A stretch of 44,257 nucleotides of DNA from Elusimicrobiota bacterium (GTDB lineage: Bacteria > Elusimicrobiota > Elusimicrobia > UBA1565 > UBA9628): NCBI GenBank assembly GCA_041662295.1, contig JBAZSR010000003.1, forward strand, positions 13,470-57,726, read 5' to 3'. Below are positions 37,039 through 37,377 of this stretch, in pieces. How positions within the stretch are numbered: position 1 is the first letter of the stretch; every line of letters begins with the position of its first letter. The notes below the pieces were generated by a model. That model was given only the letters and a program-made list of their open reading frames with translations. It was not told the origin of the DNA and made no database searches. The position numbers were made by a program, and so were the translations under genes.

Positions 37039-37377
37039 ATGATGAAGGAGAAACGCAAGCACCCCCGGTTCCCCATGGGGATCACGATGGACATCCGCGC
37101 CCACGGGGAGGTCGTCGGTTCCTGCAAGGGCAGCATCACGGACCTCTCGATGGGAGGCATGGCCCTCAAGACCAACGCGGCCCTCGAGGAAGGCATGACG
37201 ATCTACCTCAAGGTGAACATCCCGCTCGAGATCCGCGGCGAGGTGAGGCACTCCAAGGGCTCTCTGACCGGCGGGCTGCACCGCTACGGCGTGCGGTTCC
37301 ACAAGATCGGCTTCACGGACCCCGAGGCGAACAAGCCGGAGCATTTCATCGCGGCGAAGTTCCAGAAAGCGTCATGA
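37039..37377 (+). CDS. Stand-alone PilZ-domain (c-di-GMP receptor) protein embedded between atpG and atpD
   Basis: Canonical RxxxR (RKHPR) and DxSxxG (DLSMGG) motifs with the usual ~30-residue spacing. GGAAGGAG SD. Stop overlaps the atpD start (ATGA). Start is ATG 37039 or 37042. Confidence 0.8.

What the first reader, a model, noticed from the sequence alone, without database searches (positions are those of the whole stretch)
37039..37377. Canonical PilZ c-di-GMP receptor embedded between atpG and atpD
A 112-aa single-domain PilZ protein with intact RxxxR (RKHPR) and DxSxxG (DLSMGG) motifs sits inside the F1 gene block. Its stop overlaps the atpD start (ATGA), so its synthesis is coupled to the beta subunit. 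With a diguanylate cyclase directly upstream of the operon, this suggests c-di-GMP-dependent modulation of F1Fo assembly or activity. c-di-GMP is known to bind some ATPases, such as flagellar and type III export ATPases. I am not aware of a described dedicated PilZ adaptor encoded within an atp operon.
Basis: partly seen in the sequence, partly recalled or inferred. Interest (0 to 1): 0.65.

Follow-up and report, generated by a model that had tools for sequence, protein, structure and literature searches.

The report
PilZ gene inside ATP synthase operon
A small c-di-GMP receptor gene (PilZ) is a conserved cistron between the gamma and beta subunit genes of the F1Fo ATP synthase operon in two deep lineages of uncultured Elusimicrobia. 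This suggests, but does not prove, that a second messenger controls the cell's main ATP-making machine.

Summary
Window 37039-37377 (+) encodes a 111-112 aa single-domain PilZ protein (Pfam PF07238, E=2.6e-14). RxxxR (RKHPR) and DxSxxG (DLSMGG) are intact. It lies between atpG and atpD, and its stop overlaps the atpD start (ATGA).

It is a conserved gene. All 47 GTDB species hits are uncultured Elusimicrobia, and all 47 have the order atpG-PilZ-atpD. Both motifs are kept. PilZ is as conserved as gamma (median 62% identity).

A second, much more distant Elusimicrobia lineage (gamma about 40% identical) carries two tandem PilZ genes at the same position. That lineage lacks the other window-specific features, namely hldD/orfS inside the operon and REC-GGDEF upstream. 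This argues for a real link between PilZ and F1.

Several points weaken the link:
- The window's operon also hosts an LPS gene (hldD) and an unknown secreted protein.
- Related lineages lack PilZ.
- The neighbouring "diguanylate cyclase" is divergently transcribed, has an invariant non-canonical GGDDF motif, and is absent from the second lineage.
- There are no binding, interaction or expression data.

I found no paper describing this arrangement. Best reading (about 0.5): a c-di-GMP-loaded PilZ adaptor that modulates F1Fo. Main rival (about 0.35): an operon hitch-hiker with another target.

The parts
37039..37377 (+). Single-domain PilZ gene (112 aa; the likelier start is the ATG at 37042, giving 111 aa). 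RxxxR = R6-K-H-P-R10. DxSxxG = D35-L-S-M-G-G40.
   Evidence: PF07238, E=2.6e-14. Both motifs are kept in 48 of 49 distinct orthologues. AF2 model pLDDT 76.7; best Foldseek PDB matches are PilZ domains.
37027..37035 (+). Strong Shine-Dalgarno sequence (GGGAAGGAG) for PilZ.
   Evidence: Read directly from the sequence.
37374..37377 (+). ATGA: the atpD start codon overlaps the PilZ stop codon. Only a weak SD-like AGAAAG lies upstream of atpD.
   Evidence: The PilZ-atpD spacing is -4 to +33 nt in nearly all relatives.
36083..36982 (+). atpG (F1 gamma subunit, 299 aa).
   Evidence: PF00231 E=6e-85. TIGR01146 272 bits. Ordinary gamma, with only a 9-aa insertion relative to a solved bacterial gamma.
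37374..38789 (+). atpD (F1 beta subunit, 471 aa).
   Evidence: PF00006, PF02874 and PF22919.
38799..39242 (+). atpC (F1 epsilon subunit, 147 aa, with its C-terminal helical domain).
   Evidence: PF02823 and PF00401.
33195..34733 (+). atpA (F1 alpha subunit).
34730..35158 (+). orfS: a small ORF with a signal-peptide-like N-terminus and no family match, inserted between atpA and atpG.
   Evidence: no family. Present in 42 of 46 related loci.
35155..36078 (+). hldD-like ADP-glyceromanno-heptose 6-epimerase, inserted between atpA and atpG.
   Evidence: TIGR02197 279.5 bits against a cut-off of 274.6. Present in 44 of 46 related loci.
30480..33194 (+). Fo and stalk genes: atpI-like (PF09527), a small unknown ORF, atpB 31108-31878, atpE 31892-32152, atpF 32158-32658 and atpH 32658-33194.
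   Evidence: No + strand promoter-like or terminator-like site between 29400 and 39400.
29524..30474 (-). Divergently transcribed response regulator with a GGDEF-like domain and a non-canonical GHIGGDDF signature.
   Evidence: PF00072 plus PF00990, the latter covering profile positions 7-120 of 161. GGDD[FY] is invariant in 32 orthologues. Present upstream in 28 of 32 loci with enough flank. Absent in L057-L059.

Best explanation
The gene encodes a genuine single-domain PilZ receptor for c-di-GMP. In two deep lineages of uncultured Elusimicrobia it is a fixed cistron of the housekeeping F1Fo ATP synthase operon, made from the same mRNA as gamma, beta and epsilon. In the window it is translationally coupled to beta.

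The most likely role is a lineage-specific accessory or regulatory protein of the ATP synthase. When loaded with c-di-GMP it would dock on the F1 or central-stalk region and change the enzyme's activity. Restraining rotation or ATP hydrolysis is the most plausible effect. That would parallel the PilZ protein YcgR braking the flagellar rotary motor, and epsilon-CTD, zeta, IF1 and AtpTheta restraining F1. Alternatively it could act on F1 assembly.

Shown:
- domain identity and intact ligand motifs;
- operon position and tight coupling to atpD;
- strong purifying selection;
- clade-wide conservation, with duplication in place in one lineage.

Inferred:
- c-di-GMP binding;
- ATP synthase as the target;
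- the direction of the effect.
For: 1. Domain and motifs. PF07238 E=2.6e-14. R6, R10, D35, S37 and G40 are invariant in 28 homologues and kept in 48 of 49 distinct orthologues. The AF2 model is an all-beta barrel, and its best PDB matches are the c-di-GMP-binding PilZ domains of BcsA, PP4397, MrkH, Alg44 and YcgR.
2. Position. The order atpG-PilZ-atpD holds in 47 of 47 species-level Elusimicrobia genomes, one copy each, and in every metagenome contig looked up.
3. Independent conservation. Five loci of a distant lineage (L057, L058, L059, L141, L142) have gamma only 40-42% identical to the window's. They carry two tandem PilZ genes at the same atpG/atpD junction, and both paralogues keep RxxxR and D/NxSxxG. 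Those operons lack hldD and orfS, and where the contig extends upstream (L057-L059) they lack the upstream REC-GGDEF.
4. Constraint. Median identity to the window is 62% for PilZ, equal to gamma (62%). It is higher than epsilon (59%), b (51%), a (45%) and delta (43%).
5. Coupling. The PilZ-atpD spacing is -4 to +33 nt in nearly all loci. In the window PilZ has a strong SD and atpD only a weak one. No internal promoter-like or terminator-like sites were found.
6. Specificity. The nearest PilZ relatives outside the family (60-93 bits) are not in atp operons. They sit among cellulase genes or elsewhere.
7. Precedent. c-di-GMP directly regulates FliI and HrcN, rotary ATPases homologous to F1 alpha/beta (PMC4591828).
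Against: - There is no experimental or expression evidence. No RNA run holds the locus.
- The same operon carries hldD and orfS, which have no known ATP-synthase role. Relatives carry a histidine kinase plus response regulator (L061) or a DinB-like gene (L129) inside their atp operons. These operons therefore tolerate passenger genes.
- Related lineages (L061, L070, L088) lack PilZ, so it is dispensable for the enzyme.
- No clade-specific insertion or co-varying indel in alpha, beta, gamma, delta, epsilon or b points to a docking site.
- The family is confined to uncultured organisms.
Confidence: 0.5

Rival explanations
1. Operon hitch-hiker. The protein is a functional c-di-GMP-binding PilZ adaptor whose target is unrelated to ATP synthase, for example motility, pili or envelope/polysaccharide export. 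It sits in the atp operon only because that gives steady, high, growth-linked expression, as appears to be the case for hldD.
For: - hldD (TIGR02197) and an unknown secreted ORF lie in the same operon in 44 of 46 and 42 of 46 loci.
- A histidine kinase plus a REC-REC regulator lie between atpD and atpC in L061. A DinB-like ORF lies between atpG and atpD in L129.
- Local synteny is generally sticky here: the unrelated thiolase gene also stays next to the block.
- PilZ-less relatives exist.
Against: The junction between gamma and beta is kept in two lineages that share no other operon passenger. In one of them the gene was duplicated in place. The family was never seen outside atp operons and occurs once per genome. 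It is as conserved as gamma.
Confidence: 0.35
2. Ligand-independent or differently liganded PilZ. The protein uses the PilZ fold as a protein-protein adaptor without binding c-di-GMP, like the founding PilZ protein PA2960. Or it responds to another nucleotide made by the GGDDF enzyme.
For: - The only nearby cyclase-like gene has a non-canonical GGDDF motif. The one GGDDF enzyme documented as active, GSU1937, makes cGAMP as well as c-di-GMP (PMC8835794).
- A profile of the family finds no solved PilZ structure by sequence at E<=0.01.
- The Foldseek E-values are only about 1e-3.
Against: Both c-di-GMP-contacting motifs are intact and almost invariant across about 50 orthologues and both paralogues of the distant lineage. 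The PilZ proteins that I recall as non-binders (own knowledge) lack these motifs. The GGDDF protein keeps the Asp of the YGYxxGD stretch. By my own mapping from memory of PleD numbering this is the guanine-specifying Asp344, rather than the Ser that is diagnostic of Hypr cGAMP synthases. The residue itself is seen.
Confidence: 0.1

Closest known systems
Stand-alone single-domain PilZ adaptors, e.g. MapZ/PA4608 of Pseudomonas aeruginosa (own knowledge)
   Same: About 110-125 aa, PilZ domain only, RxxxR plus D/NxSxxG. They are thought to act by c-di-GMP-dependent binding to a partner protein.
   Different: MapZ targets the chemotaxis methyltransferase CheR1 and is not encoded in an atp operon. 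There is no detectable sequence relationship beyond the domain: the family profile finds no PDB chain at E<=0.01.
YcgR / FlgZ / MotI: PilZ proteins that brake or declutch the flagellar rotary motor
   Same: A PilZ c-di-GMP receptor acting on a rotary, ion-driven machine. Some orthologues are auto-annotated as 'YcgR' by JGI. The YcgR and PP4397 PilZ domains are among the best structural matches.
   Different: YcgR-type proteins carry an extra N-terminal YcgR/PilZN domain, which is absent here (112 aa, only PF07238). The presumed target is F1Fo, not the flagellum.
Protein inhibitors of F1: epsilon C-terminal domain, alphaproteobacterial zeta subunit, mitochondrial IF1, cyanobacterial AtpTheta (own knowledge)
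   Same: Small proteins that would modulate F1 rotation or ATP hydrolysis. Epsilon is encoded in the same operon.
   Different: No sequence or fold similarity: those are helical, this is a beta-barrel. None is known to be controlled by a second messenger. A role of this PilZ as an inhibitor is an inference only.
Direct c-di-GMP binding by FliI, HrcN and related export ATPases (PMC4591828)
   Same: c-di-GMP acting on ATPases homologous to F1 alpha/beta.
   Different: There the nucleotide binds the ATPase itself at a subunit interface, with no PilZ adaptor. F1Fo was not shown to be a target.
PilZ domain of cellulose synthase BcsA
   Same: The best Foldseek matches (5ej1, 4p00; probability 1.0, E about 2e-3). 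It is a PilZ module that gates a membrane machine.
   Different: There the domain is fused to the enzyme. Here it is a separate small protein in an operon.

Membership tests
PilZ domain c-di-GMP receptors (Pfam PF07238) | Significant match to the PilZ profile above the curated threshold | tested here: met
   53.8 bits against a cut-off of 22.5, E=2.6e-14, profile positions 1-90 of 102. All homologues carry PF07238.
PilZ domain c-di-GMP receptors (Pfam PF07238) | N-terminal RxxxR motif | tested here: met
   R6-K-H-P-R10. R6 and R10 are invariant in 28 homologues and in 49 distinct orthologues. The motif is kept in both paralogues of the distant lineage.
PilZ domain c-di-GMP receptors (Pfam PF07238) | (D/N)xSxxG motif | tested here: met
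   D35-L-S-M-G-G40. It is conserved in 48 of 49 orthologues; L040 has E in place of D. The distant paralogues have DVSEGG, DLSAKG and NISEGG.
PilZ domain c-di-GMP receptors (Pfam PF07238) | Six-stranded beta-barrel PilZ fold | tested here: inconclusive
   The AF2 model (pLDDT 76.7, pTM 0.64) is all-beta with 7 strands. The top Foldseek PDB matches are PilZ domains with probability 1.0, but E is only about 2e-3 and TM about 0.4-0.54.
PilZ domain c-di-GMP receptors (Pfam PF07238) | Binds c-di-GMP | not testable with these tools
   Needs DRaCALA, ITC or SPR on purified protein.
YcgR-type flagellar brake | Two-domain architecture: YcgR_N/PilZN plus PilZ | tested here: not met
   Only PF07238 is found in a 112-aa protein. 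The JGI 'YcgR' labels on some orthologues are automatic names.
F1Fo ATP synthase subunit or accessory protein | Encoded within, and co-transcribed with, the atp operon | tested here: met
   It lies between atpG and atpD in 47 of 47 genomes plus 5 distant loci. No internal promoter or terminator signals were found. Transcription itself was not observed: no RNA runs hold the locus.
F1Fo ATP synthase subunit or accessory protein | Physically associates with, or alters the activity of, the enzyme | not testable with these tools
   Needs pull-down, cryo-EM or activity assays. Indel co-variation with the subunits gave nothing.
GGDEF diguanylate cyclase (for the neighbouring gene 29524-30474) | GG(D/E)EF active-site signature | tested here: not met
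   GHIGGDDF, with GGDD[FY] invariant in 32 orthologues. GGDDF is non-canonical, with one documented active example, GSU1937 (PMC8835794). The Pfam GGDEF match is partial, positions 7-120 of 161.
GGDEF diguanylate cyclase (for the neighbouring gene 29524-30474) | Conserved linkage with the PilZ gene | tested here: inconclusive
   It is present divergently upstream in 28 of 32 window-type loci. It is absent upstream of the operon in the double-PilZ lineage.

The most novel reading that the evidence does not exclude
The PilZ protein is a c-di-GMP-gated brake or clutch of the F1Fo rotary motor. In that case a bacterial second messenger would directly switch the activity of the housekeeping ATP synthase through a dedicated operon-encoded receptor subunit. 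It would be the first such regulator for any F-type ATPase, and a functional parallel to YcgR on the flagellar motor.
Probability: 0.3. Interest if true: 0.85.

Novelty: new variant of a known kind. Interest (0 to 1): 0.6.

Why it matters
Known regulation of bacterial F1Fo is intrinsic (epsilon, MgADP) or uses a few lineage-specific inhibitor proteins. No second-messenger input is known. c-di-GMP governs the switch between motile and sessile life. A receptor built into the ATP synthase operon would link that lifestyle signalling directly to energy conservation, for example by preventing wasteful ATP hydrolysis in dormant or biofilm cells.

The system is compact: one 111-aa protein plus F1. It is conserved in more than 50 lineages and could be tested by heterologous expression even though the organisms are uncultured. 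If the link is not functional, the locus is still a clear example of atp operons acquiring stable passenger genes (hldD, a two-component system, PilZ).

Tried and rejected
- **Solved structures by sequence.** A profile search of the family against the PDB found nothing at E<=0.01.
- **Expression evidence.** Only one groundwater DNA metagenome run holds the locus, and no RNA runs do.
- **Docking feature in the subunits.** Gamma is ordinary, with a 9-aa insertion only. There are no indels in alpha, beta, gamma, delta, epsilon or b that co-vary with the long and short PilZ subfamilies, apart from trivial C-terminal length differences in alpha and b.
- **More distant atp-linked PilZ in other phyla.** The next-best PilZ families from an exhaustive profile search lie in cellulase gene clusters or unrelated contexts. 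Among 80 metagenomic gamma loci, only the one window-type locus (L060) had a PilZ. The custom HMM used there is tuned to this family and could miss very different PilZ proteins.
- **Internal transcription signals.** None were found on the + strand inside the operon.
- **Order of gain and loss.** The branching among the three related lineages is unresolved by neighbour-joining bootstrap. A single gain of PilZ cannot be separated from gain followed by loss.
- **Fused-chain AlphaFold run of PilZ with F1 subunits.** Not run.
- **YcgR identity.** Rejected: there is no N-terminal domain.
- **N-type/alternative ATPase operon.** Rejected: gamma matches the standard TIGR01146 model at 272 bits, against 86 bits for the alternative-ATPase gamma model, and the gene order is the standard F-type order.

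Full report
**1. The observation**

The ORF at 37036/37039-37377 (+) exists and reads [44 protein letters not shown]...[10 protein letters not shown]. Pfam assigns a single PilZ domain (PF07238): 53.8 bits against a cut-off of 22.5, E=2.6e-14, residues 4-92.

Flanking genes are atpG (36083-36982; PF00231 E=6e-85; TIGR01146), atpD (37374-38789) and atpC (38799-39242). The atpD ATG (37374-37376) overlaps the PilZ TGA (37375-37377).

A strong Shine-Dalgarno sequence, GGGAAGGAG (37027-37035), precedes the PilZ start. Orthologues begin MKEKRK, so the ATG at 37042 (111 aa) is the likelier start. atpD has only a weak SD-like AGAAAG. No promoter-like or terminator-like site lies on the + strand anywhere in the operon. 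The next strong promoter (39439-39467) belongs to the rRNA operon that follows.

**2. The whole locus**

The operon reads:
- atpI-like (PF09527) and a small unknown ORF
- atpB, atpE, atpF, atpH, atpA
- orfS (34730-35158; signal-peptide-like N-terminus; no family)
- an ADP-glyceromanno-heptose 6-epimerase (35155-36078; TIGR02197 279.5 bits against a cut-off of 274.6)
- atpG, PilZ, atpD, atpC

A response regulator with a GGDEF-like domain (29524-30474) lies on the opposite strand and is divergently transcribed. Its GGDEF match is partial (profile positions 7-120 of 161), and its signature is GGDDF rather than GG(D/E)EF.

**3. Who has it**

A search of about 5.8 billion proteins gave 163 homologues of roughly 105-155 aa (mostly 110-126) at 59-94% identity. 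Every named one comes from an uncultured Elusimicrobia MAG. The only run holding the window's DNA is a groundwater metagenome.

A scan of one genome per GTDB species found 47 loci, nearly all labelled Elusimicrobia or Elusimicrobiota (one only 'bacterium'), with one copy per genome. Laying the window's genes on these loci shows atpG < PilZ < atpD in 47 of 47. hldD lies between atpA and atpG in 44 of 46, and orfS in 42 of 46. The divergent REC-GGDEF gene is present in 28 of 32 loci with enough upstream sequence.

The PilZ ORF is intact everywhere (98-126 aa). The spacing to atpD is -4 to +33 nt, apart from two outliers. The 4-nt overlap is found in about 14 of 51 loci, so close coupling is conserved but ATGA itself is not.

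There are two subfamilies. The long one ends with a [12 protein letters not shown] tail, and the short one (98-102 aa) lacks it. R6, R10 and DxSxxG are kept in 48 of 49 distinct sequences. Median identity to the window is 62% for PilZ. That equals gamma (62%) and exceeds epsilon (59%), b (51%), a (45%) and delta (43%). The gene is under strong purifying selection.

**4. The decisive comparison**

An exhaustive profile search of 1.84 billion cluster representatives gave 288 hits at E<=1e-3.

The next-nearest stand-alone PilZ families (60-93 bits) are not atp-linked. They sit among GH9, GH48 and GH44 cellulase genes (L052-L055) or in an unrelated context (L140).

A more divergent Elusimicrobia group is atp-linked. 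Loci L057, L058, L059, L141 and L142 have 48-55% GC (measured for L057-L059). Gamma is 40-42% and beta 77-78% identical to the window's. Their operon is atpI-?-B-E-F-H-A-G-PilZ-PilZ-D-C. Two tandem PilZ genes sit at exactly the same junction.

These operons have no hldD or orfS, and where the contig extends upstream (L057-L059) there is no REC-GGDEF. Both paralogues keep RxxxR and D/NxSxxG. The gamma/beta junction is therefore the one feature shared by the two lineages, and the gene was duplicated in place in one of them. This is the strongest argument that the position reflects function and not accident.

**5. Relatives without PilZ**

A metagenome scan with a gamma alignment returned 80 loci. 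Only the single window-type locus (L060) has a PilZ. Three related loci have an hldD-like gene between atpA and atpG but no PilZ:
- L061: gamma 56% identical; atpG-atpD gap of 24 nt. A histidine kinase and a REC-REC regulator are inserted between atpD and atpC instead.
- L070: gap of 27 nt.
- L088: a 369-nt gap without an ORF.

L129 has a DinB-like ORF between atpG and atpD.

I built a neighbour-joining tree of alpha+beta+gamma (1252 columns, 200 bootstraps). Support values are:

| Grouping | Bootstrap |
|---|---|
| Window-type clade | 99.5% |
| Double-PilZ clade | 100% |
| L070+L088 | 100% |
| These three together | 95.5% |
| Those three plus L061, against other bacteria | 100% |

The order among the first three is unresolved; window-type plus double-PilZ gets 50%. 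A single gain of PilZ and gain followed by loss both remain possible. Either way the enzyme works without PilZ in relatives, so PilZ is an accessory and not a core subunit.

**6. Structure**

AlphaFold2 with the family alignment gives an all-beta model: pLDDT 76.7, pTM 0.64, seven strands. Its best PDB matches are the PilZ domains of BcsA, PP4397, MrkH, Alg44 and YcgR, with probability about 1.0. E is only about 2e-3 and TM 0.4-0.54. HerA HAS-barrel chains, a barrel type shared with the N-terminal domains of F1 alpha/beta, also appear with TM about 0.5. I treat that as generic barrel similarity.

Gamma is ordinary. No indel in any subunit co-varies with the PilZ subfamily.

**7. The neighbouring 'cyclase'**

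GHIGGDDF is invariant, as GGDD[FY], in 32 orthologues. The GGDEF-domain residues Asn (KAYND) and Asp (YGYxxGD) are retained. By my mapping from memory of PleD these are the guanine-binding residues. There is no RxxD I-site motif.

GGDDF is non-canonical. The literature search found one enzyme shown to be active with it (GSU1937) and one GGDDF-EAL protein (PA3258) reported as lacking cyclase activity (PMC8835794). The gene is a plausible but unproven c-di-GMP source. Its linkage to PilZ holds only within the window-type clade.

**8. Interpretation**

*Shown:* a real, strongly conserved, motif-intact single-domain PilZ gene that is a fixed cistron between gamma and beta in two deep Elusimicrobia lineages.

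*Inferred, confidence about 0.85:* it binds c-di-GMP.

*Inferred, about 0.5:* its target is F1Fo. Regulation of rotation or hydrolysis is the most natural mechanism, given three things: (a) PilZ proteins act as c-di-GMP-dependent adaptors; (b) YcgR-type PilZ proteins brake another rotary motor; and (c) c-di-GMP regulates the F1-like ATPases FliI and HrcN directly (PMC4591828). A role in assembly is an alternative within the same hypothesis.

*Main rival, about 0.35:* a passenger gene with another target, like hldD in the same operon.

*Minor rival, about 0.1:* a PilZ fold that is used without c-di-GMP, or with another nucleotide.

**9. Novelty**

Six full-text searches combining PilZ or c-di-GMP with ATP synthase, atp operon, F1Fo, atpD/atpG and Elusimicrobia found no description of this arrangement. 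The Elusimicrobia genome survey does not mention PilZ. The library is incomplete, so this is absence of evidence only.

The protein is a new member of a known domain family. The conserved placement inside the F1 gene block, with duplication in place, is a new variant of how PilZ receptors are deployed. It yields a directly testable hypothesis of second-messenger control of ATP synthase.

Noticed in passing
window 34730-36078: Two genes are inserted between atpA and atpG. One is an LPS-core gene, ADP-glyceromanno-heptose 6-epimerase (hldD; TIGR02197 just above its cut-off). The other is a small unknown ORF with a signal-peptide-like N-terminus. Both are conserved in about 44 of 46 related loci. 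hldD-like genes at this position also occur in PilZ-less relatives (L061, L070, L088).
   Followed up: partly
window 29524-30474 (- strand): The REC-GGDEF-like response regulator has an invariant non-canonical GHIGGDDF signature in 32 orthologues. The conserved motif DANPLTxLPGN replaces the usual linker motif, and there is no RxxD I-site. Its product and activity are unknown.
   Followed up: partly
L057 8001-8707; L058 8001-8699; L059 8001-8754; L141 2475-3154; L142 1990-2654: A distant Elusimicrobia lineage has two tandem, diverged PilZ genes (about 20-25% identical to each other) between atpG and atpD. Both have intact c-di-GMP motifs.
   Followed up: yes
L061 6328-8413: A relative without PilZ has a membrane histidine kinase (441 aa) and a double-receiver response regulator (250 aa) inserted between atpD and atpC. 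This is another case of signalling genes embedded in an atp operon.
   Followed up: no
L052-L055: The nearest non-atp relatives of this PilZ family are 106-aa proteins with a C-terminal LKKYIxARF motif. They sit consistently next to large GH9, GH48 and GH44 cellulase genes with CHU_C or Por-secretion tails. This suggests a separate association between PilZ and cellulase loci in another lineage.
   Followed up: no
window 39439-44257: An rRNA operon follows directly after atpC. A near-consensus promoter (TTGACA-17-TATGAT with an extended TG) lies at 39439-39467. 16S is at 39749-41277, two tRNAs at 41443-41514 and 41554-41626, and 23S runs from 41797 to the window end, where it is cut off.
   Followed up: no
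L129 5069-5560: A DinB-like 163-aa ORF lies between atpG and atpD in an unrelated metagenomic bacterium. It shows that this junction can host other passenger genes.
   Followed up: no
L065, L119, L123, L139 and others: Several metagenomic atpH-atpA-atpG loci have no atpD within 4 kb downstream of atpG. This implies split atp operons in those unidentified lineages.
   Followed up: no
window 24307-27576; 8940-11438; 12788-14374: Other genes in the window include a 1089-aa TPR-CHAT protein and a Clp/Hsp100-family double-AAA+ ATPase. The longest ORF for recA has about 165 extra N-terminal residues before the RecA domain, which is probably an over-called start.
   Followed up: no
L058 11494-11988: A YajQ-family gene lies shortly downstream of the atp operon in one double-PilZ locus. 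Some members of this family are reported as c-di-GMP binders (own knowledge).
   Followed up: no
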